Below, piece after piece: positions 37,363-57,724 of a stretch of 64,000 nt of DNA. The position numbers were made by a program, and so were the translations under genes. The stretch is from an uncultured bacterium (GTDB lineage Bacteria > Patescibacteriota > Minisyncoccia > Phycocordibacterales > JAACPR01), in assembly GCA_937858275.1 (NCBI GenBank), contig CALLZK010000024.1, positions 1,567 through 65,566 on the forward strand, written 5' to 3'. The notes beneath the pieces were generated by a model. That model saw only the letters and a program-made list of their open reading frames with translations, was not told where the DNA came from and did no database searches. Positions within the stretch are counted from its first letter, which is position 1, and every line of letters begins with the position of its first letter.

Positions 37363-38064
37363 CTACTTAAAATTGAGCAAATCTAAATCTTTTTCAGGAT
37401 ATATTTCGGTTGATTCTATTAATTCGTACAAATTTCCCTTTTCTGGATAATCCCAACTTATCAAATCCAAATTGGCACATTTGGCATATTTTTTGGCATT
37501 TTCGGTAAATTTTGTATTCGTAATAAGTAAACCATTTGTCATTTTTCTTTTTTTACCCTCAATTAAAAATTCTTGTTCGGACAAATCATCGAATCTAGCT
37601 TTTATGTATAAGGTAACTTTTGTATCTGTTTTGGTGTTTATTTCATTATGATATTTTGCCTCAATTAAAAGTAAATCATCAATATCATATGCCAAAACAT
37701 CTATTTCATGCTCAATACATTTGCCCACAAGCATAATTCCTGTTTGGGTTTTGTACCCTTTGGCATTCATTATTTTTGCTATATATTTTTCAAAAGGAAA
37801 ACCAGTTGGACCAAGTTCTGATAGTTTTCTTCGAATTGAGTATCTAAGGGCGGTTTTTTTTGATTTTTGATTTAAAATTTCATAAGCCCTTTTATATATT
37901 TTTGAAGTTTCAATGCCGTTTTTTAATTCAGATTCGATTTTATCTGAAATTTCATTTGCCAAAATAGAAGATGCTCCAGATTTTTTTAGTGAATTTCTAA
38001 GTTTTTCTCTATTAAATAATTCCAGTTGGCCGTTAGATTTTAGTATTTTTATATTGTCAGACAT
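37363..38064 (-). CDS. ATP-cone domain fused to Mrr-like (PD-(D/E)xK) restriction-endonuclease catalytic domain
   Basis: N-terminal 'IKILKSNGQLELFNREKL..' is ATP-cone. C-terminal 'EHEIDVLAYD...IEAKYH...LLITNTKFTENAKKYAK..LDLISWD' fits the Mrr_cat pattern. Confidence 0.6.
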   Translation of the reverse strand: MSDNIKILKSNGQLELFNREKLRNSLKKSGASSILANEISDKIESELKNGIETSKIYKRAYEILNQKSKKTALRYSIRRKLSELGPTGFPFEKYIAKIMNAKGYKTQTGIMLVGKCIEHEIDVLAYDIDDLLLIEAKYHNEINTKTDTKVTLYIKARFDDLSEQEFLIEGKKRKMTNGLLITNTKFTENAKKYAKCANLDLISWDYPEKGNLYELIESTEIYPEKDLDLLNFK

Positions 38065-40656: not shown

Positions 40657-41880
40657 TTAAATAGGTAAATCTGCTGGTGCCTCGCTTTTTTTGGAGTGAA
40701 CTCTTTGTAGTGATGGTGTATGAGACACACTTCCTGGAAAATGATAAATTGTCGCTAATTCCTCACTATTTAAAATAAAATGTTTTCTTTTTCTGCCAAA
40801 AAATGGTCTGAAAAAATAACCCCTTTCTCTATAAGCTTCAAAAATTTCTTGTTTGATCGCTTTTAATTTGTTTCCTGTAGGATCTTCCCACCAATAATCA
40901 AAACCTGTTTTGATTCCGGGCTTGAAACCATTTAATTCACTTGAGCTATATTGTTTAAATCCTCCAGCCAAACCGGCAATATTTACAGGATCAAAAACAT
41001 CTTTTTCTGCAACATACATACCTCGAATACCAACATCAAATGGTAATTTTGAAATGCTTCTTTCTATTGCATTTATTTTATCGATTTGACCTTTTGTGGC
41101 TAAAGGAACCTTTGTTGTACCTTCCCCAGCTTCAACCTCCACCATTGAATCTTCTCGTATCTTTTTAATTAGATCTTTTGCATCATCTTTCCACTTATCT
41201 GTTAAACCAAACCATTTTGTTGGATCCTTATCTTCTTTCTTGTGTGATCTAACTATTATTTGAAGCCACACGAATTCTCCCTGCTTTATTGAGCCCATAA
41301 ATTCCAACATTGGAGTTATTGGATCAGTTTTTTCTTCTTCTTCTGATGCTTTATCCAAACCATAATCGACATAAGTTTTTATTGGAACAGGATCTGGTGC
41401 CGTTAATTCAAATTCTGTAGCCCAAATAGAATAATCGGAATCATTATAATCAACATTTTTTGTATAATCTTCAACTTCAAAAACTTCAATTCCTGGATAT
41501 TGAGCATAAATTTGTGATTGAAGATATCCAACCATATTTTTTCTGGTCCAAACATAAAATCCAACATCTCCACCGTTTGAGGCGATTTCTAATGAAAACC
41601 AAGGTCTGACTTTTCCTTTCCAGTATTTGTCTATCGGTGTTGCTTCTCCCACTGTTTGAGAAAGTGCATTCATAAATAACTCCATAGACAGAGGTGTTTT
41701 GAATATGTCCATTGGTGGAACAATTCTAAGTATTTTGTATTCCTGATCTGCTAAAAATCTATTTCTGGCATAATTTATCCACATATTGACTAATATAACA
41801 GTCAAAATAATTGGTAAAAATATAGGCAAAATCAAAATCAAAAATTCTATTAATCTTTGTATTATATCAAAACTGTTCAT
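40657..41880 (-). CDS. membrane-anchored 407-aa protein, function unknown
   Basis: N-terminal TM 'LIEFLILILPIFLPIILTVILV' and a large acidic domain. No family assigned. Confidence 0.45.
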   Translation of the reverse strand: MNSFDIIQRLIEFLILILPIFLPIILTVILVNMWINYARNRFLADQEYKILRIVPPMDIFKTPLSMELFMNALSQTVGEATPIDKYWKGKVRPWFSLEIASNGGDVGFYVWTRKNMVGYLQSQIYAQYPGIEVFEVEDYTKNVDYNDSDYSIWATEFELTAPDPVPIKTYVDYGLDKASEEEEKTDPITPMLEFMGSIKQGEFVWLQIIVRSHKKEDKDPTKWFGLTDKWKDDAKDLIKKIREDSMVEVEAGEGTTKVPLATKGQIDKINAIERSISKLPFDVGIRGMYVAEKDVFDPVNIAGLAGGFKQYSSSELNGFKPGIKTGFDYWWEDPTGNKLKAIKQEIFEAYRERGYFFRPFFGRKRKHFILNSEELATIYHFPGSVSHTPSLQRVHSKKSEAPADLPI

Positions 41881-41932: not shown

Positions 41933-42964
41933 TTAGACTACTAGTGTGTATTTTCCGCTTTTGTCTTTTTTGAAATGAGATTGATTTTGTAGATTTACCA
42001 AAACCGTATTATCTTTTACATATCTTTCTTTTAAAACCTTTTCAATTATTTCTTCTTTTGTTAGTGGACCGTGTTTTTGTAAAATATTTTTTATAACATC
42101 TCGAACAACACCCGGAGAATATCCCCACTCAGTTAATGCATAAAGTCCTCTGCCAACCAAAACAAATCGCTCATCTTTAATTAATTCATTATGGCATGTT
42201 GCGACATGTGCTTTTCTATTAAAAACTTTCGATATTTGATCGGCTAATTCTTTGAAGTGAATTGGTGAGCCGTGTTTTCTAATTACCAAAAAAGCATAAT
42301 CTCTAATTCCTTTAACATTTATATTTGGTGATTCTATTTTTCCCCATTCTCCAAGAGGATTTTGGGCAATTTTTTTTGAAATTCTCAACCATCTTTTTAC
42401 AACCTCTTCTCTTTTATATTTTTCAGATATTTCCTGGACATGATTTAGAAAAGATTTTATCAATTCTGATTCGGGTATTATGTCGTCATCTTTTAAATTG
42501 GAGTAGATTTTTTTTATGGATTCTTCTATTGATGAAGCCAAGTTTGTATTTACAGACCATCTATGATTAAAATGATCGTCTTCTTTTAATTTTACAAAAT
42601 GATCACCTATAACTAATAGAAAATGTATATGATTTCGAATGGTTTCATTTAATGATAAATGATTTAATAAATCCTCTTCGGAAACTACACCACCAAGATC
42701 ATCTATTACACCTTTTAATTCTTCAAAAACAGGAATAGTTTCGTTATATGCATCAGATTTTCTAATAGAAGAAAGAGAGTGCTCTTCTATTTGTCTAACT
42801 CGTTCACGAGTTATGTTGTATTCTTTTCCGATTGATTCCAAGGTTAATCTATCGGTATTTTTTGAAAGTCCATATCTTTTTAACAAAACATCTTTTGATC
42901 TCTGTGATAATCCAGAAATTAATTTTTTTGTCACTTCTTTTGGTTGAAAACTAAGTTTTATCAT
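41933..42964 (-). CDS. DNA-binding protein with N-terminal sigma-70 region-4-like HTH and C-terminal HARE-HTH-like domain
   Basis: 'LTLESIGKEYNITRERVRQIEEHSL' (sigma region 4) and 'HFKELADQI...FVLVGRGLYALTEWGYSP' (HARE-HTH-like). Confidence 0.55.
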   Translation of the reverse strand: MIKLSFQPKEVTKKLISGLSQRSKDVLLKRYGLSKNTDRLTLESIGKEYNITRERVRQIEEHSLSSIRKSDAYNETIPVFEELKGVIDDLGGVVSEEDLLNHLSLNETIRNHIHFLLVIGDHFVKLKEDDHFNHRWSVNTNLASSIEESIKKIYSNLKDDDIIPESELIKSFLNHVQEISEKYKREEVVKRWLRISKKIAQNPLGEWGKIESPNINVKGIRDYAFLVIRKHGSPIHFKELADQISKVFNRKAHVATCHNELIKDERFVLVGRGLYALTEWGYSPGVVRDVIKNILQKHGPLTKEEIIEKVLKERYVKDNTVLVNLQNQSHFKKDKSGKYTLVV

Positions 42965-46656: not shown

Positions 46657-47961
46657 CTACACCTCCAAATTCATCCACATCCAAGTAAAAATAGCAGTTA
46701 GTATTAAAACCAAAAAAGTTAGTCCTCCATACACCAGATGTGTATAAGCAAAAATCATTCTGCGACTATCAAAATTGCCAGTTTTGATTATTTTCCAAAA
46801 ACTCATTTTATTTTCGTCAATTTTTATTTGTTTTCTAAAAGAAAATAAATTGGTATTTTTTGTGATTCCAATCATTGCAAGACCAACTGCTCCCATAAAT
46901 AATTTTAGATTTATTTCATTTTCAAATAATTTACTTTTTACAATAAAAGAAAGTGGATTTATTTGCTGAATTTTTATGGCAAGTTTTTGCTCTATATAAG
47001 ATTCAAGCCCAACCATCATTGAACTGCCGCCAGATAAATATATTGCATCTACGGTTTCGCCAGAGTTTTTTTCATAATAATTTATACTATTCCTAACTTC
47101 TTCTAATAAATTATCAACTATTTTTGTAATAGAATTTTTGTAAGCACCTTGAGCAGATTCTCCAATACCAAATTTTATTTTCATTTCTTCTGCCTCTAAT
47201 TTTGTAATTTTTAAATCATTTGAAATAGCATCTGTAAAAGAATCTCCGGCAATAGAGACTGTTGTTGATAATTTCAATAAACTATTTCCTTCAAAAATAG
47301 TAATGTTGCTTTTTTCACCACCAATATCTAGCACAACATGAGTATCTTTATCAATTGGAGGCAAAAAAACTTTTCCCATACACATACACACCAAAGAAAA
47401 TTCTACGACCTCAAGACCTAGTCGATGACACACCTCAACATAATCATTCAAAACACCTTGTTGAATCCCGATAAATGTCACATATTGAAGTTGTTTTTTG
47501 GGAATATTATAAGTTGTATAATCCCAATAAATTTGTTTGAAATCAAGTGGAACATGTTTTTTTGCCTCTTCCAAAATTTTTAGTCTGATTTCTGAATCTG
47601 AAAGAGATTTGTCCATGGCAGTTCCCCAAGTAAAAACCTGTGCTTCTGGTAAAGACAAAATAACTCTATTAGTTGAAGTTTTTCTGGGTTTTGCATTTTG
47701 AAGTAAAATTTTTATTTTTTGTTCCAAAATTTCTTTATTTAAAATTTTTCCCCTTTCAACAACTCCGTTTTCTAATAAAACTCGAGACCAAGATCTTGGT
47801 GCATGAGAAAAAAATGCATTAAATTCTAACAACTCTATTGAAGTATCAGAAATATCCATACCAAAAGCAGTGTCAATTCTTTTTCTAAAAAAAGTGTTGA
47901 ATGGATTTTTAAAATTTGGTTGTAAATTCTGTTGTTTTTGTGGTTGTATTTTTGATTCCAT
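46657..47961 (-). CDS. pilM: type IV pilus assembly protein PilM fused to a PilN-like C-terminal TM segment
   Basis: Actin-like 'VVLDIGGEKSNITIF'. C-terminal TM 'LVYGGLTFLVLILTAIFTWMWM'. Confidence 0.7.
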   Translation of the reverse strand: MESKIQPQKQQNLQPNFKNPFNTFFRKRIDTAFGMDISDTSIELLEFNAFFSHAPRSWSRVLLENGVVERGKILNKEILEQKIKILLQNAKPRKTSTNRVILSLPEAQVFTWGTAMDKSLSDSEIRLKILEEAKKHVPLDFKQIYWDYTTYNIPKKQLQYVTFIGIQQGVLNDYVEVCHRLGLEVVEFSLVCMCMGKVFLPPIDKDTHVVLDIGGEKSNITIFEGNSLLKLSTTVSIAGDSFTDAISNDLKITKLEAEEMKIKFGIGESAQGAYKNSITKIVDNLLEEVRNSINYYEKNSGETVDAIYLSGGSSMMVGLESYIEQKLAIKIQQINPLSFIVKSKLFENEINLKLFMGAVGLAMIGITKNTNLFSFRKQIKIDENKMSFWKIIKTGNFDSRRMIFAYTHLVYGGLTFLVLILTAIFTWMWMNLEV

Positions 47962-47995: not shown

Positions 47996-48430
47996 TTAAA
48001 AGTTAGCGAAATTGTTCCAACTTTCAATAACAACTTGTGGTGTGGTTGTGGAAACGACAACTTCTATTTTGGCAGTAAAGTTTTGATCACCAAATGAGCT
48101 TTCTCCACGAATAGTTTTTGTTGGATAATTTCCCGAAATAGAATAATTACACTCTTCATCAGTCTGAAATGTTAAATCTATACCAGAAACGGTGTCGTCT
48201 GAAACTGTTGTTGTTGGATCATTTACTAATTCCATCAGGGCATGTTCTATACATGTATTTGCCAAATATTTTGCAATTTTTGATTGTTCATTTGCGGAAG
48301 AAACTTGAGCATCATCAATAACCTGTAATGCCAAACTAGAAACAACAAAAAGTAATATTGCATTAACTAATAAAATTGCAGTTAATGCCACAAAACCATC
48401 TTTTTTTATTTTATAAGATTTTAATTTCAT
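47996..48430 (-). CDS. pilin-like or minor pseudopilin with degenerate prepilin motif
   Basis: 'KKDGFVALTAILLVNAILLF' is a class-III-like signal with no Glu at +5. Lies in the pilus locus. Confidence 0.45.
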   Translation of the reverse strand: MKLKSYKIKKDGFVALTAILLVNAILLFVVSSLALQVIDDAQVSSANEQSKIAKYLANTCIEHALMELVNDPTTTVSDDTVSGIDLTFQTDEECNYSISGNYPTKTIRGESSFGDQNFTAKIEVVVSTTTPQVVIESWNNFANF

Positions 48431-48433
48431 GTT

Positions 48434-51400
48434 TTATCTTCTAATATTAACTGTTGTCTTGAAATATTGTCTTGGGCCATTCTGATCTCTATTTGGTCCA
48501 ACATATTGTAACACTAATTCTATTTGAATTAATCCGGATTGTCCTTCTGCTGTTAAGTTTTTAAAATTAACCGCCAAAACATTTACAGTATTTGAAGTTA
48601 ATCTAACTTCCTGATCACTTCCTATTTTTTTATACAAAACACCATTTTTAACATAAAAAATAGTTTGAATATCATCTTTTTTCAGGGTAAGAGTTGAAAC
48701 ACCAGATTGACCGATAATAGTAGAGCCGAAAATTGATGCGGAATTTTGATTTGAACCAGAAAATTTTATTTCTATATCATTATTTGCAATTTCTATACTG
48801 CTTGTGCTATTTATAATAAATTTTATGGATTGTCCGGCAAACATTATACTTTGTTGATCTCCTGTATTTATTGAATAAAAAGGATATAAACAAAAACGAT
48901 TGTTACTACCAAATTCTACACCAGGGTTGCTTGTTATTTTTATAATATTGCTATTGTCTTCAAAAGAAGAGCTGTTTCCAAAATCAAAAATATCTTGTGT
49001 CGGCATTTCTATTGGACAAGAATTTGAGCCGGACATTTGATAATGTCTCAATAAAACATTTGAAATATATTCTTTTGATAATGATCCTGTGTATTCCAAA
49101 GATATTGAATTTAGGGTTGTGGTAGCAGTTTCTAATAATAAACTAAATGCTCCACCAAGTGGTTGATTTGTTATTACATCGCTTTCTAATTGTATGTTTC
49201 TTATTTGTGAGCCGTGAGCCGAAATCAATATTTGTTGTGGTGCCAAAGATGTTAAAGTCCAATTAGTATTATTTGTGGAATCTGTACTATTTGAAGCATT
49301 AACTGCGATATCGCTTATGTTATTAGAATCTTTCACATCTACATATTGAATTTCTCTATTTCCTTTTGGATCTATATTCCACTGAGTGCCACCAACTGTC
49401 GATCTTAATTTTAAAAGAGAATTTTCTTGACCTTTTATTGTCAAATTATTATTTATGGTTGTAGTTTGTTCTGCAACAAAAAATGCTGTATTACTATCAT
49501 TTCCCTCAATAGTTAAATTACCGTAAGTCCAGTCTGATTTTATGTTAAAATTAACATCCTGATTGCCGGTATATTTTATCGTACTATCAAATTCAATTGT
49601 TGGGTTATGAGAAAGTGTTTCATTTCCTGTCAAAATAAGAGTTGCATTATTTTGAATTGTAAAAGAATTGTTTGTAGTTAAATTATAACCATTTAGATTA
49701 AAAGTGGATCCGCTTGTAATGATTATATTATTAATAACCGCATTAGAATTTAATTTTAACCCCTCTTCGTTTGTATTTGAAATTGTGACTGTGCCAGTAG
49801 TAAGTGCGGTTGAATTTGCATGATTCAAATTTTGAACATTACTACCAGAAAAAATATAATTTGTATTACTTGCTATAGAAATAGTATATGTAATATTACC
49901 CTTTAGATTTATTGTTCCAGAATTTGGTACAGCATTAATTATATTCAAATTTCCATTAACAATTAAAGTGTCGTCTGTCGCAATGGTAAGATAATTATTA
50001 GTGGCATTTTTATTTATAGAAACATTATTAAATTCCAAATTTGAATTTACATCAATGGTTGTAAAACTTCCACCAAAAATTACTGTGCCCCCACTATGAT
50101 TAAATGTTCCACCAGTAGTATTGATGAAGTTTCCATTAAATTGAGTTGTTCCAGTTGAAGCATTGAATATTCCTGTTCCAGAAAGATTAAATGCTCCGGT
50201 GATAGTGACTGTTCCAGAACCACCGTTGAAAGTGCCGCCTGATTGGGTGAAAGTGCCGGTAACATTTAAATTGTTTGAGTTAATAATAAAACTATTAAAA
50301 GATTGAAGATTCAGACTACTTATTGTGGTGTTAGCACTACTTGATATTGAAACATGAGGATTATTGATTATTAGATTTGGTAGACCGCCGCCGTTTAAAT
50401 TGACAGTTTTTGGGTTGGTTGTTCCATCATTAATTATATTAAGATTTGTACTACCAGCCCAAGAATTTTCCCCGGACGATAGATTACCCTTCAAATTTAC
50501 CGTACCAGCACTAAAACCACCCTGATTAATAATCAGATTTCCGTTTATAATAAGTGTGTCTCCTGTTGATATTGTAACTAACTGATTGCTAGCACCCTTG
50601 TTTATTGTAATATTATTAAATTCCAAATTTGAATTTACATCAATGGTTGTAAAACTTCCACCAAAAATTACTGTGCCCCCACTATGATTAAATGTTCCAC
50701 CAGTAGTATTGATGAAGTTTCCATTAAATTGAGTTGTTCCAGTTGAAGCATTGAATATTCCTGTTCCAGAAAGATTAAATGCTCCGGTGATAGTGACTGT
50801 TCCAGAACCACCGTTGAAAGTGCCGCCTGATTGGGTGAAAGTGCCGGTAGTAGTTAAATTGCCGGAACCCACATCAAAAGACCCATTAAAAGCCTGAAGA
50901 TTTAAACTTTGAAATCTATTATTTCCCGAATAAACAATAGAAATGTTTGAATTATTTATTATAATATTTGATAAATTTGCATTATTAATAGTAATAGTTT
51001 TTGAATTTACCGTTCCGTCAGAAATTAAAGATATATTTGCAGTTCCACTAGCATCAACAGAAGAAAAATTTGCATTACCAAAGATATTTATATTTGCACC
51101 AGATATTGTACCGCTCAAATGAGTAAATGTATTTAAAACATTAAGTGTGTCACCGGTAGCAATAGTTAGAACAGTGGCGGGTGTTCGGTTTACTGTTAAA
51201 TTATTAAATGTTAAAGATGAATTTACATCTATTGTTCTATGGGCCCCAGCCAAAACAACGGTTCCATTATTGTGATTGAATGTTCCACCGGTAGTATTGG
51301 TAAAATTATTATTAAATTGAATATTGCCGACAGAATTTGGAGCATTAAATATTCCAGTACCAGATAAAGTAAATACTCCAGTAATTAAAATATTTCCAGA

Positions 51401-51799
51401 ACCACCGTTGAAAGTGCCACCTGATTGGGTAAAATGTGTTGAGGTGGTTAAAGAGTGTGTATTAACATTCAACGTTCCAGCAGACATGTTTATTTGCTGA
51501 ACAGACCAATTAGCAGTCAAATTGGCAGTGTTTGTACAACTAGAAGTAAAATAAGCAATATCTAATGTGTTTGGCACACTAGCACCACCACCAACTCCGC
51601 AGGAATTTGCAGTAGTAGACCAATTGGCAGAATCCGTTACACTTCCACCCTCTGTACCAACCCAATATCTATCTGCGGCAAAAACACTATTAGTAGAAAT
51701 AAAAAAACTAAAAAACACAGTTATTAATACGAAAAAAAATAAAACAAAATTTATTTTTATTTTTTTATCTTTTTTTATGTTTTTAATAAATTCTTGCAT
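48434..51799 (-). CDS. large secreted beta-helix-type repeat protein (putative pilus-associated adhesin)
   Basis: Signal peptide, then 'DRYWVGTEGGSVTDSANWSTT..PNTLDIAYFT', then three about 196-aa repeats 'TQSGGTFNGGSG.VTITGAFNLSGTGIFNA...'. Lies between the minor pilin genes. Confidence 0.7.
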   Translation of the reverse strand: MQEFIKNIKKDKKIKINFVLFFFVLITVFFSFFISTNSVFAADRYWVGTEGGSVTDSANWSTTANSCGVGGGASVPNTLDIAYFTSSCTNTANLTANWSVQQINMSAGTLNVNTHSLTTSTHFTQSGGTFNGGSGNILITGVFTLSGTGIFNAPNSVGNIQFNNNFTNTTGGTFNHNNGTVVLAGAHRTIDVNSSLTFNNLTVNRTPATVLTIATGDTLNVLNTFTHLSGTISGANINIFGNANFSSVDASGTANISLISDGTVNSKTITINNANLSNIIINNSNISIVYSGNNRFQSLNLQAFNGSFDVGSGNLTTTGTFTQSGGTFNGGSGTVTITGAFNLSGTGIFNASTGTTQFNGNFINTTGGTFNHSGGTVIFGGSFTTIDVNSNLEFNNITINKGASNQLVTISTGDTLIINGNLIINQGGFSAGTVNLKGNLSSGENSWAGSTNLNIINDGTTNPKTVNLNGGGLPNLIINNPHVSISSSANTTISSLNLQSFNSFIINSNNLNVTGTFTQSGGTFNGGSGTVTITGAFNLSGTGIFNASTGTTQFNGNFINTTGGTFNHSGGTVIFGGSFTTIDVNSNLEFNNVSINKNATNNYLTIATDDTLIVNGNLNIINAVPNSGTINLKGNITYTISIASNTNYIFSGSNVQNLNHANSTALTTGTVTISNTNEEGLKLNSNAVINNIIITSGSTFNLNGYNLTTNNSFTIQNNATLILTGNETLSHNPTIEFDSTIKYTGNQDVNFNIKSDWTYGNLTIEGNDSNTAFFVAEQTTTINNNLTIKGQENSLLKLRSTVGGTQWNIDPKGNREIQYVDVKDSNNISDIAVNASNSTDSTNNTNWTLTSLAPQQILISAHGSQIRNIQLESDVITNQPLGGAFSLLLETATTTLNSISLEYTGSLSKEYISNVLLRHYQMSGSNSCPIEMPTQDIFDFGNSSSFEDNSNIIKITSNPGVEFGSNNRFCLYPFYSINTGDQQSIMFAGQSIKFIINSTSSIEIANNDIEIKFSGSNQNSASIFGSTIIGQSGVSTLTLKKDDIQTIFYVKNGVLYKKIGSDQEVRLTSNTVNVLAVNFKNLTAEGQSGLIQIELVLQYVGPNRDQNGPRQYFKTTVNIRR
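50024..50849. repeat. intragenic tandem duplication: 238 bp 100% identical at 50024-50261 and 50612-50849 (period 588 bp = 196 codons), with a third diverged copy about 51230-51440
   Basis: Direct comparison of the two stretches. In-frame repeat inside the giant gene. Confidence 0.85.
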
Positions 51800-51819
51800 T
51801 TTTTTTTATTTTTTTATGT

Positions 51820-52077
51820 CTAATCATCAAAAGAACCAGCACCAACAAATTCATCGGCATCCAAAATAGCATCAACAATTGCATTCATGGCATTTTGTCC
51901 GCTTCTGTTCAGTTCCTGATGAGCTTTTATTCTTTCTCTACCAGAAAAAATATTTATGGATATTTGAACAATTATAGCCAACATTACAAGTGTAATTGCA
52001 AAATAAATTATAAATTCCAAAATAGTAAGTCCTGAATTTTGTTTAATTTTATTTTTTTTATTTTGTAGTAAAAACAT
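51820..52077 (-). CDS. type IV pilin-like protein (pseudopilin, 85 aa)
   Basis: 'NSGLTILEFIIYFAITLVMLAI' has a G/LTILE prepilin motif after a 16-aa leader. Confidence 0.65.
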   Translation of the reverse strand: MFLLQNKKNKIKQNSGLTILEFIIYFAITLVMLAIIVQISINIFSGRERIKAHQELNRSGQNAMNAIVDAILDADEFVGAGSFDD

Positions 52078-52099: not shown

Positions 52100-52603
52100 T
52101 TATGGTTCAGGTTCTGGTGTCGGTTCTTCTTGAACCATTTTCCAATTAGATAAATATGTTGTCAAAATAGTTTCTCCATTTTGTCCAACCCTCTTTGGCC
52201 AAGTAACTTTACTCTGAATTTGTTTTATATCACCAATCCCGGAAATAGAAATTGTTCTGGTGAAAGTTTTACTATCCGATATTTGAATATTTTTGTGTTG
52301 TTCATTGTTGCTCAAAACCCACTGAGAATTCAACTCATCAAAGTAAATGCCGTAATCATTAACATCACTCAGAGATGCAAAATCTATATCTCTAATTGAT
52401 TTGACTGCTTCAAGCCCCTCTTCGGCAAGCAAAACTGCCTGATTTAGATTATAAGAATTTTCTGAGGTATCCAATATATCAATCATAAAAATTGCTACCC
52501 CCATCATACCAATTGTAAAAAAAGCAATTGCAAATAAAACTTCCAAAACTCCAAATCCACGATTTGTGATTTTGTATTTTTTTGTAAATTGAATACTTTT
52601 CAT
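52100..52603 (-). CDS. type IV pilin-like protein (pseudopilin)
   Basis: 'NRGFGVLEVLFAIAFFTIG' has Glu at +5. Confidence 0.65.
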   Translation of the reverse strand: MKSIQFTKKYKITNRGFGVLEVLFAIAFFTIGMMGVAIFMIDILDTSENSYNLNQAVLLAEEGLEAVKSIRDIDFASLSDVNDYGIYFDELNSQWVLSNNEQHKNIQISDSKTFTRTISISGIGDIKQIQSKVTWPKRVGQNGETILTTYLSNWKMVQEEPTPEPEP

Positions 52604-52609
52604 TTTAAT

Positions 52610-53116
52610 TTATGGTTGTTGTACAATATCATCAACACAATTATTACCAAATTCTACCAAGCCAGAATTTTCACAAATAGAAATTTGTTCAGAAACATTT
52701 CCTTTTGATAAAGTAATAATTCCTGTCCAATTTGGAAATCCTGTTGCATTTTCAAAATAAATAGAATTATTATTGGGTGTAGGTGGCAAAAATTCCACAC
52801 TCAATCCATACAAATTAAAAATTTCATTTACTGAATCGTTTGGGTTATAAGAATCACCTCTAAAAAGTACAAAAAAATCTTCACTGTTGGGATTAAAAAT
52901 AACACCATAGCCACTATCTCCTCGACGAGTTAAAGCAAATGCTTGAGCTTTTTTTAAAGTTGAAAAAACTTCATCGGCAGTACTTTTTGTAATTTGTGAA
53001 TTATAAAATTCAATTGTGGCAGGAATAGTTAGTCTAGCAATCAAAACCATCAAAAGAACAGCAATCATTATTTCTAATAAAGTAAATCCTTTATTTTTTT
53101 TGATAATTTTGATCAT
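52610..53116 (-). CDS. type IV pilin-like protein (pseudopilin)
   Basis: 'KGFTLLEIMIAVLLMVLIA' is a canonical prepilin N-terminus. Confidence 0.7.
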   Translation of the reverse strand: MIKIIKKNKGFTLLEIMIAVLLMVLIARLTIPATIEFYNSQITKSTADEVFSTLKKAQAFALTRRGDSGYGVIFNPNSEDFFVLFRGDSYNPNDSVNEIFNLYGLSVEFLPPTPNNNSIYFENATGFPNWTGIITLSKGNVSEQISICENSGLVEFGNNCVDDIVQQP

Positions 53117-53134: not shown

Positions 53135-54202
53135 CTATCTTAGACTGCCAGACAAAGAATAGATTGGCAGAATAATTGATAGAGCAATTAATCCCACGAT
53201 AAGACCAATTGAAACAAGTAATATCGGCTCAATAACTGTAGGTAAATTTTTTGTTCTAGTGTTGATATCCCTTCCATAAAAAACTGCTAAATTTTCAAAA
53301 GAACCTTCTATTGTACCAGTTTTTTCACCAACCATAATTATGCTTCTAAAATTATGTGGATATAAATTTTCAAATGTTGAAATTGATTCAGACAAACTAA
53401 CTCCTTGAATAAGTTTTTCTTTTATAATCAAAAAAGAATCTTGATATGGAATATTTTTACTTTCCATACTAGCAATATCAAAAGATTCATTTATTGTTAG
53501 ACCAGACTTCAGAAGTATATGCATTAATTGTGAGTATAAGGCCAATTCATATGCTCGAACCAGTGGGCCGACAAAAGGTGTTCTCAAATAAATTTTTTGC
53601 AAAATTCTTCTTGTTGGAATCCATCTTGAAATTAAAACCATAAAAACAATAAATAATAAAACTCCCAAAGCAATCATTTTTGTATTATCTCGAAAAAAAG
53701 TTGCGGTATTTAAGACAATTCTTGTTACCAATGGTAATTGGATTTTCATACCTGTAAATATTGGAATAAGTTTTGGTAAAATAAATATTGAAAGTCCAAA
53801 ACCAAGCAAAATTGCTGCTGAAAGTACAATTTTTGGATATAAAGTTACAGATTTTATATCTCTTTTTAATTGTAAATTTCTTTCCATCCAATCAGCCAAA
53901 AACAAAAGATTATTTACCAAACTACCGCTAACCTCACCAGCTTTGACCATGCTAATAAAAACACTTTTTAATCTAACAGAGCTTTTTTGTAATGTAATTG
54001 AAAGAGGATTTCCTTTTTCAAGATCAATTATAACTTCATCCAAAAGTTTTTTCATCGCAGCAGATCTTGCCTCTTCTCTTAACATTCTAACAGATTCATT
54101 TATTGTAATACCGCTTTTCAATAATACTGCCAAATCACGAGCCAAATCAATTTGTTCTTGTGGTTTTATTTCTACTTGAAAAGCTAAAAAATTTGATGAC
54201 AT
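53135..54202 (-). CDS. pilC: type IV pilus platform protein PilC (GspF family)
   Basis: Two T2SS_F repeats and 3 TM segments. Confidence 0.85.
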   Translation of the reverse strand: MSSNFLAFQVEIKPQEQIDLARDLAVLLKSGITINESVRMLREEARSAAMKKLLDEVIIDLEKGNPLSITLQKSSVRLKSVFISMVKAGEVSGSLVNNLLFLADWMERNLQLKRDIKSVTLYPKIVLSAAILLGFGLSIFILPKLIPIFTGMKIQLPLVTRIVLNTATFFRDNTKMIALGVLLFIVFMVLISRWIPTRRILQKIYLRTPFVGPLVRAYELALYSQLMHILLKSGLTINESFDIASMESKNIPYQDSFLIIKEKLIQGVSLSESISTFENLYPHNFRSIIMVGEKTGTIEGSFENLAVFYGRDINTRTKNLPTVIEPILLVSIGLIVGLIALSIILPIYSLSGSLR

Positions 54203-54206
54203 AATT

Positions 54207-55883
54207 TTATGCTATTGGATTTAATAATTCTTCTAATGTCGTTGTTCCAGAAATCAAATGATACAATTCCCAATATTCCAAAGTCTTCATTCCTTGCAAA
54301 ATAGCAAATTTTTTGATGTTTTGTGATATTTCACCTGCTACAACCATCTTTCTAATTTCATCATTCATTTCCAAGACTTCAAAAATACCAGTTCGCCCAA
54401 GAAAACCTGTATTGCCACACATTGCACATCCAGCACCACTATAAAAATGAATATTATTGGGGTCTATCATTTTATCCTTAAATTCATTTTTCAAAACAGA
54501 TTCCAAATTTGGATTTGCTTTTATAAAAGCTGTTTCAGATTCTGTTGCATTTCTTGAAACTTTACAATACGGACAAACTTTTCTAACTAATCTTTGTGAA
54601 ATAATTACAGAAACCGATGTTGCAATAAGAGTTTTTTCCACATTTAATTCTGAAAGTCTAGAAAAAACGGTTGCAGTATCATTTGAGTGAAGTGTTGTAA
54701 AAAGAACATGGCCTGTAAGTGCGGCATTTATAGCAATAGAAGCAGTTTCATCATCTCTAATTTCTCCAACCATGATCATATCCGGATCTTGACGAACAAT
54801 AGATCTAAGTCCGTTTGCAAAATTTAAATTCTTTTTTTCGTTTACTTGAATCTGTTGAATTCCTTCCATGGCATATTCCACAGGATCTTCTATCGTGACA
54901 ACATTTAATTTTTTCTTATCAACCAATTGCAATATGGCATAAAGAGTTGTGGTTTTTCCAGAACCAGTAGCACCAGTTGATATAATCATTCCATTTGGAC
55001 GAGAAACTATTTTTTTTATTTTTTCTAAATCTTCTGGCATCAAACCAAGTTCTTCAAGTGTTAGTCTACGAGATTTTTCTGATAAAATTCTCATAACAAT
55101 ATTTTCACCGTTTGTGACTGGTAAAATAGAAACTCTAATATCGAATTTTTCTTTTCCGACTGAATGAGAAAATCTACCGTCTTGAGTCATTCCATGTTCG
55201 TCTGTTTTTAGATGAGATTTTATTTTTATAAGAAAAACTATTTTTGGATGAAGTTCTAAAGGATATGTTGCCACCCTTCTTAAAAGCCCATCAACACGAA
55301 CCCTTATTCCAACATCAGAAACGGATGGTTCAATATGTATGTCAGATGCTTTATTTTCATAAGCATATGAAACTACCCTATTTACCATTTTTACAATTAT
55401 TTCATCGTTTGCAGTTTTTTTAAAATCTTCCACAAAGTCCCTGAAGTCTTGTGGTAAATTGTTTTTGTAAAATAAAAGAAATTTTTCAATAGAGGTTGGA
55501 GTGGCATAATACATTTGTGATTTTTTGCCAACTATTTTTTCTAGATTTTTGGCAAGTTCATAATTTGTTGGATTTGTGGTAGCAATTTTGAATGTTGTTT
55601 CGTCTTCTGAAAAAATAAGTGCTTGTTGAGAAATTGCCACCGATTCTGGCATATAAGACAAGTAATTGTCTTGAATACTTTCGTGATTTAAATCCACAAA
55701 AGGAAAACCGAGATGTTTTGCGATTATTTGTCCAAGTTCTATTTCTGAAATAATTTTTTCTTTTACCAAAACCTTTTCAATAGAAACCTTTTCTTTATCA
55801 GCAATAGATTGTGCATTTTCAAAATCAACCAAAGAAACTGTTTGGCTATCTAATAAAACTTTTTTTAGCTCTTCTGTTGGCAT
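54207..55883 (-). CDS. pilB: type IV pilus assembly ATPase PilB (GspE family)
   Basis: Walker A 'STGATGSGKTTTLYA', 'IMVGEIRD', and a tetracysteine motif 'CPYCK..CAMCGNTG'. Confidence 0.9.
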   Translation of the reverse strand: MPTEELKKVLLDSQTVSLVDFENAQSIADKEKVSIEKVLVKEKIISEIELGQIIAKHLGFPFVDLNHESIQDNYLSYMPESVAISQQALIFSEDETTFKIATTNPTNYELAKNLEKIVGKKSQMYYATPTSIEKFLLFYKNNLPQDFRDFVEDFKKTANDEIIVKMVNRVVSYAYENKASDIHIEPSVSDVGIRVRVDGLLRRVATYPLELHPKIVFLIKIKSHLKTDEHGMTQDGRFSHSVGKEKFDIRVSILPVTNGENIVMRILSEKSRRLTLEELGLMPEDLEKIKKIVSRPNGMIISTGATGSGKTTTLYAILQLVDKKKLNVVTIEDPVEYAMEGIQQIQVNEKKNLNFANGLRSIVRQDPDMIMVGEIRDDETASIAINAALTGHVLFTTLHSNDTATVFSRLSELNVEKTLIATSVSVIISQRLVRKVCPYCKVSRNATESETAFIKANPNLESVLKNEFKDKMIDPNNIHFYSGAGCAMCGNTGFLGRTGIFEVLEMNDEIRKMVVAGEISQNIKKFAILQGMKTLEYWELYHLISGTTTLEELLNPIA

Positions 55884-55953: not shown

Positions 55954-56421
55954 CTATCTTGTGACACCAATATAGTCAGATGAAACTATTGATCCGTCGG
56001 GGCCTTGTGTATTTTGGGCACATACAGTAACCCTTCCATTACCTGAATCGATTACAACTTTATATTGTCCGTTGTTATTTGAAACATCCGGATCGGTTGG
56101 TATTGCAGAAAGATAACTTGAAACCAGGTAGGATTCCAAGTCCGATGCATCCGTTCCATCATTAACACAGCCCTGTATGGCCTGATCTGTATCAGAATAA
56201 GAATCATCATCATATATATTTAATAAACTTAAATTACCAGCATTATCAATTCCATATTGATGAATTGCATTCAAGATCGCCAAAACATCAGATCTTCTCT
56301 GAGCATTATTTGCATCAGCAATTTGTTTTGCTGGATTTATGGCGACAATAACTATACCTGCCAGAATAGCAATTATTGCTATAACTAATAACATTTCTAA
56401 TAATGTAAAACCTTTTTTCAT
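55954..56421 (-). CDS. pilA: type IVa major pilin
   Basis: 'MKKGFTLLEMLLVIAIIAILAGI' and a C-terminal Cys pair (disulfide loop). Confidence 0.85.
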   Translation of the reverse strand: MKKGFTLLEMLLVIAIIAILAGIVIVAINPAKQIADANNAQRRSDVLAILNAIHQYGIDNAGNLSLLNIYDDDSYSDTDQAIQGCVNDGTDASDLESYLVSSYLSAIPTDPDVSNNNGQYKVVIDSGNGRVTVCAQNTQGPDGSIVSSDYIGVTR

Positions 56422-57191: not shown

Positions 57192-57264
57192 GGGCCGGTA
57201 GCTCACCTGGTAGAGCGCCTCACTTGCACTGAGGAGGTAGCGGGTTCAAGTCCTGTCCGGTCCA
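57192..57264 (+). tRNA. tRNA-Ala (anticodon UGC)
   Basis: Cloverleaf: acceptor GGGCCGG/CCGGTCC with G3:U70, D-arm GCTC..GAGC, anticodon stem CCTCA/TGAGG with loop CTTGCAC, T-loop TTCAAGT. 73 nt. CCA is not encoded. Confidence 0.9.
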
Positions 57265-57268
57265 CAAA

Positions 57269-57724
57269 ATGAATTTTGGTCTTTCAAAAAAAATGCAAAT
57301 AGTATTTTTTGTATTGATAATTTGTGCTGTAATAGGCCTGTTAGACACTGTTTATTTAACAATAAAACATTATGAGGGTGCTCCGGTTGTTTGTGGATTA
57401 TTTGATAGGTGTGACATTGTAACAACAAGTAAATACTCGACGATTTTTGGATTTCCAATTTCTCTTTTGGGAGCAATATATTATTTTTTAATTTTAATAT
57501 TAATAGATATTTATTTATTTTTTAAAATAAAATTTATTCCAAAAATTGCTTTAGCAATTTCCACATTATCATTTTTGTTTTCTGTGTGGTTAGTTTATTT
57601 ACAATTATTCATTCTAAAATCCATTTGCCCATATTGCATGCTATCGGCAACAACTTCCACAATTATTTTTGGATTGCTTATTTTTATAAATTACAAATCT
57701 CGCATTGCCAATTCTATTACATGA
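57269..57724 (+). CDS. vitamin K epoxide reductase (VKOR) family membrane oxidoreductase
   Basis: Loop Cys pair 'VVCGLFDRCD', active-site 'CPYC', and 4-5 TM. Starts 4 nt after the tRNA. Confidence 0.75.
   Translation: MNFGLSKKMQIVFFVLIICAVIGLLDTVYLTIKHYEGAPVVCGLFDRCDIVTTSKYSTIFGFPISLLGAIYYFLILILIDIYLFFKIKFIPKIALAISTLSFLFSVWLVYLQLFILKSICPYCMLSATTSTIIFGLLIFINYKSRIANSIT

What the first reader, a model, noticed from the sequence alone, without database searches (positions are those of the whole stretch)
48434..51799. 1121-aa beta-helix repeat protein in the PilY1 position of the pilus locus, with a recent exact internal duplication
A 1121-aa secreted protein is encoded between the pilin-like genes of the type IV pilus locus. 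In proteobacterial fimU-pilVWXY1E operons, the large tip adhesin PilY1 occupies this position. This protein is not a PilY1 beta-propeller. It starts with a signal peptide and 'DRYWVGTEGGSVTDSANWSTT...PNTLDIAYFT', which reads like passenger-associated or autotransporter-type beta-helix repeats. The body consists of Asn/Gly/Thr/Ser-rich strands 'TQSGGTFNGGSG.VTITGAFNLSGTGIFNA...NHSGGTVIFGG', predicted to form a right-handed beta-helix or solenoid. Two of its three about 196-aa repeats are identical at DNA level (238 bp at 50024-50261 and 50612-50849), so the duplication is recent or undergoing gene conversion. That pattern is typical of contingency-type surface adhesins. For an epibiotic reduced-genome cell, this is a strong candidate for the host-attachment module of the pilus.
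Basis: partly seen in the sequence, partly recalled or inferred. Interest (0 to 1): 0.75.

Follow-up and report, generated by a model that had tools for sequence, protein, structure and literature searches.

The report
Split minor pilin carrying beta-helix adhesin
In an ultrasmall Paceibacterota bacterium, a 1121-residue secreted beta-helix protein in the type IV pilus operon ends in the head domain of a minor pilin, while the tiny gene just upstream encodes only that pilin's stalk helix, so the two probably rejoin to mount an adhesin-like fibre on the pilus.

Summary
The ORF is real: 48434-51799, minus strand, 1121 aa. The exact 238-bp repeat is real too. It covers only the first 79 codons of two otherwise diverged 196-codon units, so it is a conversion-type patch and not a recent duplication of a whole unit. 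Two sibling assemblies break exactly there, so unit copy number is unverified.

The gene order is conserved in five lineages: pilin, PilB, PilC, two minor pilins, a 67-85-aa "stub" pilin (signal plus alpha-1 helix only), the big protein, a PilX-like pilin, PilM.

Best reading: a split J-slot minor pilin that displays a beta-helix adhesin on the pilus. All evidence is computational. Physical association, tip location and adhesion are inferred. It is a new variant of known pilus tip adhesins.

The parts
55954..56421 (-). Major pilin (155 aa). It has a class III signal, KKG|FTLLE, and is the first gene of the operon.
   Evidence: Pfam N_methyl 3e-7. NCBIfam GspG-like 6e-12 and IV_pilin_GFxxxE above cut-off. 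The best sigma-70-like site of the region, 56512-56485, lies just upstream.
54207..55883 (-). PilB-type assembly ATPase (558 aa).
   Evidence: Pfam T2SSE 1e-115 and MshEN.
53135..54202 (-). PilC platform protein (355 aa).
   Evidence: Pfam T2SSF 5e-47.
52610..53116 (-). Minor pilin m1 (168 aa). It is tentatively GspH/FimU-like. Its signal is KG|FTLLE.
   Evidence: Pfam N_methyl above cut-off. NCBIfam GspH 3e-5, below cut-off. Conserved in L004, L006 and L007.
52100..52603 (-). Minor pilin m2 (167 aa). It is tentatively PilV/GspI-like. Its signal is RG|FGVLE.
   Evidence: NCBIfam type_IV_pilV 7e-6, below cut-off. Conserved in relatives.
51820..52077 (-). Stub pilin (85 aa). It has a class III signal (SG|LTILE, with E5) and the alpha-1 helix only, with no globular head. 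It is proposed to be the stalk half of the split J-slot minor pilin.
   Evidence: Sequence. Weak N_methyl and ComGE matches. 67-74-aa orthologs lie immediately upstream of the big gene in L004, L006, L007 and the P0020 contig, and abut or overlap it. It aligns with the N-terminal half of the intact 168-171-aa pilins of L015 and L016.
48434..51799 (-). The big protein (1121 aa): Sec signal, N-cap, beta-helix, CBM-like domain A, pilin-head domain B.
   Evidence: ORF. AF2 pLDDT 88. Full-length ortholog P0001 at 40% identity. 100% identical to HMP18771.1, annotated as a hypothetical protein.
51677..51799 (-). Sec-type signal peptide (aa 1-41). Signal peptidase I is predicted to cut at VFA|AD.
   Evidence: Sequence. 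The AxA|A motif followed by (R/Y)YWVG is conserved in 8 homologs. Helix at aa 16-34 in the model. Cleavage is inferred; no signal-peptide predictor was available.
49262..51676 (-). N-terminal cap (aa 42-120) and right-handed parallel beta-helix (aa 121-846). The helix includes three ~196-aa units and a terminal 'LRST..W......V.V.DS....NNTNW' capping module.
50612..50849 (-). Exact 238-bp tract, upstream copy. It encodes the first 79 aa of unit 2 (aa 317-396).
50024..50261 (-). Exact 238-bp tract, downstream copy. It encodes the first 79 aa of unit 3 (aa 513-592).
   Evidence: Sibling assemblies break here.
48713..49261 (-). Subdomain A (aa ~847-1029), a beta-sandwich resembling the N-terminal carbohydrate-binding-like domain of GH33 sialidases.
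48437..48712 (-). Subdomain B (aa 1030-1121), a pilin head domain of GspJ/XcpW-like fold without an alpha-1 helix. It is proposed to be the head half of the split minor pilin and the docking module.
47996..48430 (-). 'Post' minor pilin (144 aa), DG|FVALT with no Glu5. It is tentatively PilX/GspK/ComGG-like, the apical cap subunit.
   Evidence: Sequence. Conserved directly downstream of the big gene in L001, L004, L006, L007 and the P0020 contig. Its L015 counterpart hits ComGG at 4e-5, below cut-off.
46657..47961 (-). PilM (434 aa) with a C-terminal transmembrane segment. It is the last pilus gene of the operon.
   Evidence: Pfam PilM_2 5e-27. NCBIfam pilM.

Best explanation
The 85-aa stub (51820-52077) and the 1121-aa protein (48434-51799) are the two halves of a split minor pilin. 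This pilin occupies the PilW/GspJ slot of a Paceibacterota type IV pilus operon.

Proposed steps:
1. The prepilin peptidase processes the stub. The stub supplies the hydrophobic and amphipathic alpha-1 helix that enters the pilus core.
2. The big protein is exported by Sec and cut by signal peptidase I.
3. Outside the membrane it folds into a right-handed beta-helix roughly 15 nm long, followed by a CBM-like beta-sandwich.
4. Its last ~90 residues form the beta-sheet head of that pilin. The head packs on the stub helix.
5. The reconstituted pilin joins the H-like, PilV-like and PilX-like minor pilins in the priming complex at the tip. Pilus extension then presents the beta-helix as the adhesive end of the pilus.

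What is shown:
- the fold;
- the operon conservation;
- homology of subdomain B to the head of intact pilins in the same slot;
- the conversion tract.

What is inferred:
- signal cleavage;
- stub-head pairing;
- tip location;
- adhesive function and any target.

The 238-bp identity between units 2 and 3 comes from intragenic recombination or gene conversion between tandem beta-helix units. That process also explains the variable unit number in homologs.
For: 1. Operon. The order pilin, PilB, PilC, m1, m2, stub, big protein, PilX-like, PilM has gaps of 3-34 bp between PilB and PilM (70 bp between the major pilin and PilB). The same order recurs in L004, L006, L007 and the P0020 contig, where stub and big gene abut or overlap. 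In L001 the big gene stays linked to the PilX-like gene and PilM.

3. Rosetta-stone loci.
- L015: PilC, m1, PilV-like, 171-aa pilin, PilX-like, PilM.
- L016: PilC, pilin, 322-aa pilin, 168-aa pilin, PilX-like, PilM.
- In the 171-aa protein, residues 11-75 match the stub profile (22 bits) and residues 83-167 match the subdomain-B profile (53.9 bits, E 8e-19).
- The 168-aa protein passes Pfam N_methyl. It matches the stub profile (35 bits) and subdomain B (16 bits).
- Concatenated stub + B aligns colinearly with both pilins, with no large gap at the junction. The Tyr9-(Phe/Val)10 signature is shared.

4. No other gene in these operons carries subdomain B or a J-like head.

5. Subdomain B is at the extreme C-terminus in 56 of 58 family members.

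6. Precedent. Sec-exported PilC/PilY1 dock through their extreme C-terminus onto minor pilins (PMC12918778). Beta-solenoids replace PilY1 in Thermus and cyanobacteria (PMC6561018; 10.64898/2026.02.12.705559).
Against: - No experiment and no multimer model supports stub-head pairing.
- The stub's match to the intact L015 pilin (22 bits) is only a little above the generic pilin N-terminus similarity of 13-26 bits.
- Family members with subdomain B also occur far from pilus genes and without an adjacent stub: L002, L003, L010, L011, L013, L014. In L001 no stub is nearby.
- The monomer model of subdomain B folds confidently without a helix.
- The H/I/K assignments of the neighbouring pilins rest on sub-threshold matches.
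- Adhesion and the target are unknown.
Confidence: 0.5

Rival explanations
1. It is a pilus-associated tip adhesin that docks PilY1-style, and the stub plays no part. The conserved C-terminal module binds the PilX-like and PilV-like minor-pilin heads directly, by beta-sheet contacts or strand complementation. The stub is an independent small minor pilin, for example ComGE-like.
For: Operon conservation. The linkage big gene, PilX-like gene, PilM is kept in L001 without an adjacent stub. The extreme C-terminus is conserved...F(K/R)TT(V/A).... The PilC/PilY1 precedent of C-terminal strand complementation with PilK (PMC12918778). The stub weakly resembles ComGE.
Against: The intact L015 and L016 pilins show that subdomain B is normally covalently joined to a stub-like helix in this very slot. 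No J-like pilin remains in the operon if stub + B is not counted.
Confidence: 0.2
2. It is a cell-surface or secreted beta-helix adhesin that is only co-transcribed with the pilus genes, as tapirins are, and is not part of the filament. The pilin-like terminal domain is a relic, or a generic wall- or surface-binding fold.
Against: There is no recognisable anchor (LPXTG, SLH, C-terminal TM) in a protein whose signal is probably cleaved. The position between translationally coupled minor-pilin genes is strict in five lineages. The terminal domain is homologous to a true pilin head.
Confidence: 0.2
3. It is an enzymatic beta-helix, a polysaccharide lyase or depolymerase like phage tailspikes, delivered at the pilus to open the host envelope rather than to adhere.
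Against: The best hits are non-enzymatic adhesin passengers. The helix is built from three near-regular repeat units, two of them partly identical, which is typical of stalks and not of active-site-bearing helices. There is no Pfam Beta_helix, Pectate_lyase or glycoside hydrolase match even at E up to 5.
Confidence: 0.07

Closest known systems
PilC/PilY1 tip adhesins of type IVa pili (Neisseria, Pseudomonas, Myxococcus, Acinetobacter)
   Same: A large Sec-exported non-pilin protein encoded among the core minor pilin genes. It is thought to sit on the priming complex at the tip and is held through its extreme C-terminus (PMC12918778).
   Different: There is no beta-propeller and no PF05567 match. 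The gene lies before the PilX-like gene, not after it. The C-terminal docking element is a whole pilin head domain (~90 aa), not a 6-10-aa strand, and a separate head-less stub pilin accompanies it.
GspJ/XcpW/PilW-class minor (pseudo)pilins
   Different: There is no significant sequence match to T2SSJ/gspJ models. Here the alpha-1 helix and the head are on two polypeptides with different export signals, and ~1000 residues precede the head.
ComZ (Thermus) and cyanobacterial PilX beta-solenoid minor pilins
   Same: A beta-solenoid carried by a core minor pilin at the pilus tip in organisms without PilY1 (PMC6561018; 10.64898/2026.02.12.705559).
   Different: Those are single-chain pilins with their own alpha-1 helix and a GspK-like fold. 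Their solenoid is triangular, like ice-binding proteins, and is inserted between the last two strands. Here the helix is a pertactin-like right-handed one, placed N-terminal to a J-like head, on a Sec-exported chain.
Modular pilins (S. sanguinis PilB/PilC; giant PilV-like pilins P0227/P0259/P0261/P0263; L015 LVIVD-propeller pilin)
   Same: An adhesive or other module is attached to a minor pilin so that the pilus displays it. Subdomain A is shared with the giant PilV-like pilins (PMC8179133).
   Different: Modular pilins are one polypeptide: class III signal, pilin, then module. Here the module precedes the head, and the pilin is split into two genes.
Tapirins of Caldicellulosiruptor
   Different: Sequence homology to tapirins was not tested directly. 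Tapirins are not known to carry a pilin head, and they lie beside the minor-pilin genes, not between them. Pilus attachment has not been shown for them.
Autotransporter and two-partner-secretion passenger domains (pertactin, Vag8, UpaB, Ag43, EtpA, HMW1)
   Same: Right-handed parallel beta-helix of repeated ~20-residue rungs. These are the best structural matches. Many sequence homologs of the helix carry TPS, T9SS or SLH modules.
   Different: There is no PATR Pfam match, no beta-barrel translocator, no TPS domain and no outer membrane to cross. The C-terminus is a beta-sandwich plus pilin head.
PilX1/PilX2 of Nanosynbacter lyticus TM7x (Saccharibacteria)
   Same: A CPR type IV pilus locus encodes a large tip-adhesin candidate with a non-PilD signal prediction and accessory domains (PMC11623550).
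   Different: Those are described as lollipop pilins with C-terminal jelly-roll or beta-propeller domains. Neither a beta-helix nor a split arrangement is reported.

Membership tests
PilC/PilY1 (Pfam PF05567, Neisseria_PilC) | C-terminal seven-bladed beta-propeller domain and a sequence match to the family model | tested here: not met
PilC/PilY1 (Pfam PF05567, Neisseria_PilC) | Sec-exported non-pilin protein encoded within the core minor-pilin operon | tested here: met
   Signal peptide with AxA|A. The operon position is conserved in five lineages.
PilC/PilY1 (Pfam PF05567, Neisseria_PilC) | Extreme C-terminal beta-strand complements the PilK/PilX sheet | not testable with these tools
   This needs multimer structure prediction or biochemistry. 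Only conservation of the C-terminal strand was seen.
Passenger-associated transport repeat (PATR) / type V autotransporters | PATR repeats (PF12951) and a C-terminal beta-barrel translocator | tested here: not met
   No Pfam or NCBIfam match. The C-terminus is a beta-sandwich plus pilin-like head.
Passenger-associated transport repeat (PATR) / type V autotransporters | Right-handed parallel beta-helix passenger fold | tested here: met
Type IV minor pilin, GspJ/PilW class | Class III signal peptide (G/A|xxxxE) and N-terminal alpha-1 helix on the same polypeptide | tested here: not met
   The big protein has a Sec-type signal. The motif and helix are on the adjacent 85-aa stub.
Type IV minor pilin, GspJ/PilW class | Globular head with the GspJ-type beta-sheet fold | tested here: met
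Type IV minor pilin, GspJ/PilW class | Sequence match to T2SSJ (PF11612) or gspJ (TIGR01711) | tested here: not met
   No hits among 28 subdomain-B sequences. hhalign against a GspJ profile gives E 0.037 over 13 columns. The intact L015 and L016 pilins do not hit these models either.
Type IV minor pilin, GspJ/PilW class | Homology to a bona fide pilin in the same operon slot, between I-like and K-like genes | tested here: met
   L015 171-aa pilin: subdomain-B profile 53.9 bits, E 8e-19. L016 168-aa pilin: above the Pfam N_methyl cut-off, stub profile 35 bits, B profile 16 bits. The alignment is colinear.
Modular pilins (single-chain pilin plus grafted module) | Pilin moiety and module in one polypeptide that starts with a class III signal | tested here: not met
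   There are two ORFs in different frames separated by 20 bp, each with its own signal. No family member with subdomain B has a class III N-terminus.
Contingency (phase-variable) surface-protein loci | Hypermutable simple repeats or cassette recombination that give on/off or variant switching, seen as variation between close strains | tested here: inconclusive
   There are no indels between the window and the sibling MAG over 11.7 kb. A-runs near the start codon do not vary. Unit copy number cannot be compared, because the sibling assemblies break in the repeat. Units number 2-5 in distant homologs.

The most novel reading that the evidence does not exclude
The stub and the big protein are a two-chain pilin. 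The alpha-1 spine is processed by PilD, and the globular head is exported by Sec at the end of a ~100-kDa beta-helix. They are made separately and reassembled outside the membrane. This would be a previously undescribed way to load a very large adhesin onto a type IV pilus tip. The dispersed paralogs that end in the same head domain would then be interchangeable tips competing for one stub.
Probability: 0.45. Interest if true: 0.85.

Novelty: new variant of a known kind. Interest (0 to 1): 0.72.

Why it matters
How CPR/Patescibacteria recognise and hold their hosts is largely unknown outside Saccharibacteria, and type IV pili are their most conserved surface machine.

This locus gives a concrete, testable candidate for the adhesive end of the Paceibacterota pilus. 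It also suggests a new assembly principle. A minor pilin is split into a stalk and a head, and the head is carried by a Sec-exported fibre. This extends the recent finding that PilC/PilY1 are held on the tip by C-terminal strand complementation.

The C-terminal head domain is also a searchable signature, with 574 cluster representatives at E up to 0.001 for the whole C-terminal module. It could be used to catalogue candidate pilus-displayed proteins in uncultured bacteria.

On the practical side, the exact intragenic tract breaks two of three public assemblies of this organism, so such genes are likely to be under-annotated.

Tried and rejected
1. Pfam, NCBIfam and PDB sequence searches of the whole protein found nothing meaningful. 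The only hit was a sub-threshold CATSPERD Ig-like match.
3. The word-indexed homolog search with the C-terminal 277 aa found nothing. The exhaustive profile search did find relatives.
4. The search for related loci in genome contigs with a single protein returned one irrelevant Chitinophagaceae locus, L005. Alignments A3 and A4 were too diverse for the metagenome scan. A2 worked.
5. I first thought the last 18 residues were a disordered docking strand, since pLDDT was below 50 in the full model. I dropped this because the deeper C-terminal alignment folds them as a strand at pLDDT ~80.
6. Profile-profile tests of subdomain B against GspJ and against the operon's own pilins were not significant. 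A first GspJ alignment was contaminated by frameshifted entries and was discarded.
7. Read-through or frameshift fusion of stub and big gene was rejected. The frames differ, the junctions differ between loci, and the big protein has its own conserved signal.
8. I rejected the idea that the exact repeat is a pure assembly artefact. Both flanks of the tract are present in independent assemblies, and L004 shows an analogous tract. Copy number remains unverified.
9. The promoter and terminator scan was no better than shuffles.
10. Rfam found only a tRNA at 57192-57264.
Full report
**Observation**

The ORF 48434-51799 exists, but on the minus strand. It starts with ATG and encodes 1121 aa. The window has 29.7% G+C.

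The N-terminus is MQEFIKNIKKDKKIKINFVLFFFVLITVFFSFFISTNSVFA|ADRYWVG. This is a Sec-type signal with an AxA|A site. Eight homologs share the site and the following (R/Y)YWVG...NWS cap.

Three ~196-aa units lie at aa 121-318, 319-514 and 515-710. The two 238-bp tracts, 50024-50261 and 50612-50849, are identical, and no other exact run of 15 nt or more exists at offset 588.

The tract covers only the first 79 codons of units 2 and 3. The rest of those units is 51% (nt) and 35% (aa) identical, and unit 1 is 73% identical to the tract. The units are therefore old. The identity is a patch produced by intragenic recombination or gene conversion, not a recent duplication of a whole unit.

**Source organism and assembly status**

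The protein is 100% identical to HMP18771.1, annotated 'hypothetical protein, Candidatus Paceibacterota bacterium'.

Two sibling MAGs break at the tract. GCA_035324455.1 has a 100-N gap with flanks ending at window positions 50795 and 50261. The underlying ENA contig NODE_272 ends at 50261. The third MAG has 335-aa and 547-aa fragments.

The tract is therefore real enough to break assemblies, but the number of units is not independently confirmed. Short-read bubble-popping could also turn near-identity into identity.

A homolog from a different sample (L004) has its own exact 389-bp tract at offset 585. Homologs carry 2-5 units. Between the window and the sibling MAG there are no indels over 11.7 kb, so I saw no sign of phase variation.

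**Context**

All genes below are on the minus strand, with gaps of 3-34 bp between PilB and PilM and 70 bp between the major pilin and PilB:

| Gene | Coordinates | Note |
|---|---|---|
| Major pilin | 55954-56421 | class III signal |
| PilB | 54207-55883 | |
| PilC | 53135-54202 | |
| m1 | 52610-53116 | weakly GspH-like |
| m2 | 52100-52603 | weakly PilV-like |
| Stub | 51820-52077 | 85 aa; class III signal and alpha-1 helix only |
| Big protein | 48434-51799 | 1121 aa |
| PilX-like pilin | 47996-48430 | 144 aa; G|FVALT, no Glu5 |
| PilM | 46657-47961 | |

YchF and LeuRS follow.

The same order, with a 67-74-aa stub abutting or overlapping a 1453-1904-aa homolog, occurs in L004, L006, L007 and the P0020 contig. 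In L001 the 40%-identical full-length ortholog keeps the PilX-like gene and PilM downstream, but it follows ribosomal protein L21.

Other homologs are not near pilus genes at all: L002, L003, L010, L011, L013 and L014.

**What the protein is**

No Pfam or NCBIfam family and no PDB sequence matches it. This includes PATR, Beta_helix and PilY1.

AlphaFold2 on a 45-sequence alignment gives pLDDT 88. About 85 short strands form a solenoid from residue ~98 to ~846, and beta-sandwich domains follow.

- Hap, Ag43, TibA and HMW1

Depolymerases and tailspikes score somewhat lower.

From about 750 residues at about 20-25 residues per rung, I infer a rod on the order of 15 nm. I could not measure this on the coordinates.

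Sequence homologs of the helix are widespread and carry T9SS, SLH, TPS or CarboxypepD_reg modules. The helix is therefore a generic extracellular stalk or adhesin module.

**The C-terminal module**

A profile of residues 845-1121 finds 574 cluster representatives at E up to 0.001 among 1.84 billion. The module has two parts.

Subdomain A spans ~170 aa.
- It can be tandem, with 24 copies in P0121.
- It also occurs inside giant PilV-like pilins with true class III signals: P0227, P0259, P0261 and P0263. L016 shows one of these in a pilus locus.

Subdomain B spans ~90 aa and lies at the extreme C-terminus in 56 of 58 proteins.

Short family members of 305-415 aa consist of little more than a signal peptide, a short N-terminal domain (the (K/R)(F/Y)W(V/I)G...NWS cap in most of them), A and B.

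Sequence methods do not confirm the GspJ link. hhalign aligns only FYVKNGVLYKK with WYLRNHTLYRA, at E 0.04-0.1.

**The key comparison**

A metagenome scan returned L015, a 4.5-kb contig with this gene order:
- PilC
- m1
- a PilV-like pilin fused to an LVIVD beta-propeller
- a 171-aa protein
- a PilX/ComGG-like pilin
- PilM

That 171-aa protein has a class III-type N-terminus (A|TTLIE). Its residues 11-75 match the stub profile over nearly its whole length (22 bits). Its residues 83-167 match the subdomain-B profile (53.9 bits, E 8e-19).

L016 has a second case, in the order PilC, pilin, 322-aa pilin, 168-aa pilin, PilX-like, PilM. The 168-aa protein:
- passes Pfam's N_methyl cut-off;
- matches the stub profile at 35 bits;
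- matches subdomain B at 16 bits.

Stub + subdomain B from four loci, concatenated, align colinearly with both intact pilins. The stub ends where B begins. They share a Tyr9-(Phe/Val)10 signature that the other pilins of the operon lack.

No other gene in the stub-containing operons carries subdomain B.

The slot between the PilV-like and PilX-like genes therefore holds one of two things: an ordinary ~170-aa pilin, or that pilin split into a head-less stub and a protein whose last domain is the head. In T2SS (gspH-I-J-K) and T4aP (fimU-pilV-pilW-pilX) order, this slot is the J/PilW position and not the PilY1 position.

**Mechanism proposed**

1. PilD processes the stub, which provides alpha-1.
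2. The big protein is exported by Sec and cut by signal peptidase I, then folds outside the membrane.
3. Subdomain B packs on the stub's amphipathic alpha-1C and restores a J-type minor pilin.
4. This pilin assembles with the H-, I- and K-like pilins into the priming complex.
5. Extension then carries the beta-helix on the pilus tip.

What is shown: the folds (as predictions), the operon conservation, and the homology of B to a pilin head.

What is inferred: signal cleavage, pairing, tip location and adhesion.

The model fits three published findings:
- Sec-exported PilC/PilY1 are locked to the tip through their extreme C-terminus (PMC12918778).
- Beta-solenoids substitute for PilY1 in Thermus ComZ and cyanobacterial PilX.
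- Large non-PilD-signal tip candidates exist in Saccharibacteria (PMC11623550).

I found no description of a pilin split into separately exported stalk and head. One search of the held library used the exact phrase 'split pilin' (no paper holds it), and another searched for pili, adhesins and beta-helices in Paceibacteria/Parcubacteria.

**Rivals**

- PilY1-style docking without the stub (0.2).
- A tapirin-like surface adhesin that is only co-transcribed with the pilus genes (0.2). The dispersed paralogs are the main argument for this.
- An enzymatic depolymerase helix (0.07).

The dispersed paralogs can also be read another way, as alternative tips that share one stub. That reading is untested.

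**Verdict**

It is wrong or unsupported on PATR membership, on 'recent duplication' and on contingency behaviour.

The more interesting finding is the split J-slot pilin architecture. It is a new variant of the known family of pilus tip adhesins and modular pilins, and so far it is supported only by computation.

Noticed in passing
window 46657-47961 (-): PilM (434 aa) carries a C-terminal transmembrane segment after the PilM_2 domain (aa 34-363). No separate PilN or PilO gene is present in the operon, so this may be a PilM-PilN-like fusion.
   Followed up: partly
L015 1565-3403 (+): The operon with the intact 171-aa J-slot pilin also has a 612-aa PilV-like class III pilin fused to an LVIVD-repeat beta-propeller (Pfam 1.4e-33). 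This is a pilin-borne propeller in a CPR-like pilus operon, so the accessory module sits on a different minor pilin there.
   Followed up: partly
L016 4402-8499 (+); proteins P0227, P0259, P0261, P0263: These are giant (1357-1529 aa) PilV-like pilins with significant N_methyl motifs. Three of the four also have a CarboxypepD_reg domain, and all have one copy of subdomain A (E ~1e-21 to 5e-25). L016 shows one of them inside a pilus locus.
   Followed up: partly
L004 8001-13121 (P0003 gene): An independent exact 389-bp intragenic repeat at offset 585 sits in the 1706-aa homolog. Conversion tracts between beta-helix units therefore recur in this family.
   Followed up: partly
L008 4901-5000 (GCA_035324455.1, DAOLBR010000001.1); L009 position 1: The public sibling assembly has a 100-N scaffold gap exactly at the 238-bp tract, and the ENA contig ends there. 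As a result the gene is annotated as two partial proteins (335 aa and 608 aa).
   Followed up: yes
protein P0121 (3924 aa): This protein has 24 tandem copies of subdomain A. It also gives a sub-stretch OB_HELZ2 Pfam hit that is probably spurious.
   Followed up: no
window 37363-38064 (-): A 233-aa protein combines an ATP-cone with an Mrr_cat restriction-endonuclease-like domain. This looks like an NrdR-like N-terminus on a nuclease fold, which is an unusual pairing.
   Followed up: no
window 41933-42964 (-) and 40657-41880 (-): A Sigma70_r4 + HARE-HTH protein is followed by a 407-aa protein with no family hit here (DUF8128 in L001). The pair is syntenic downstream of LeuRS in L001.
   Followed up: no
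window 51777-51819 (-): A-runs (A7 and A9) fill the 20-bp spacer between the stub stop codon and the big gene's ATG, and A8/A7 runs lie in codons 8-13. There is no obvious Shine-Dalgarno sequence, and no length differences from the sibling MAG.
   Followed up: partly
L003 18482-19303 (+): Three consecutive T4SS_pilin (PF18895) genes lie ~7 kb downstream of the non-pilus paralog P0046, which also carries a Laminin_G_3 domain.
   Followed up: no
L011 4951-10552 (+): Two family members (661 aa with Laminin_G_3, and 1183 aa) sit in tandem between L21 and RecR. The window has L21 (6871-7221) directly next to the RecR-position gene with nothing between them.
   Followed up: partly
window 57192-57264 (+) and 57269-57724 (+): A tRNA is followed 5 bp later by a VKOR-family gene on the plus strand. 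They lie between the pilus operon and the D-Ala-D-Ala ligase gene.
   Followed up: no
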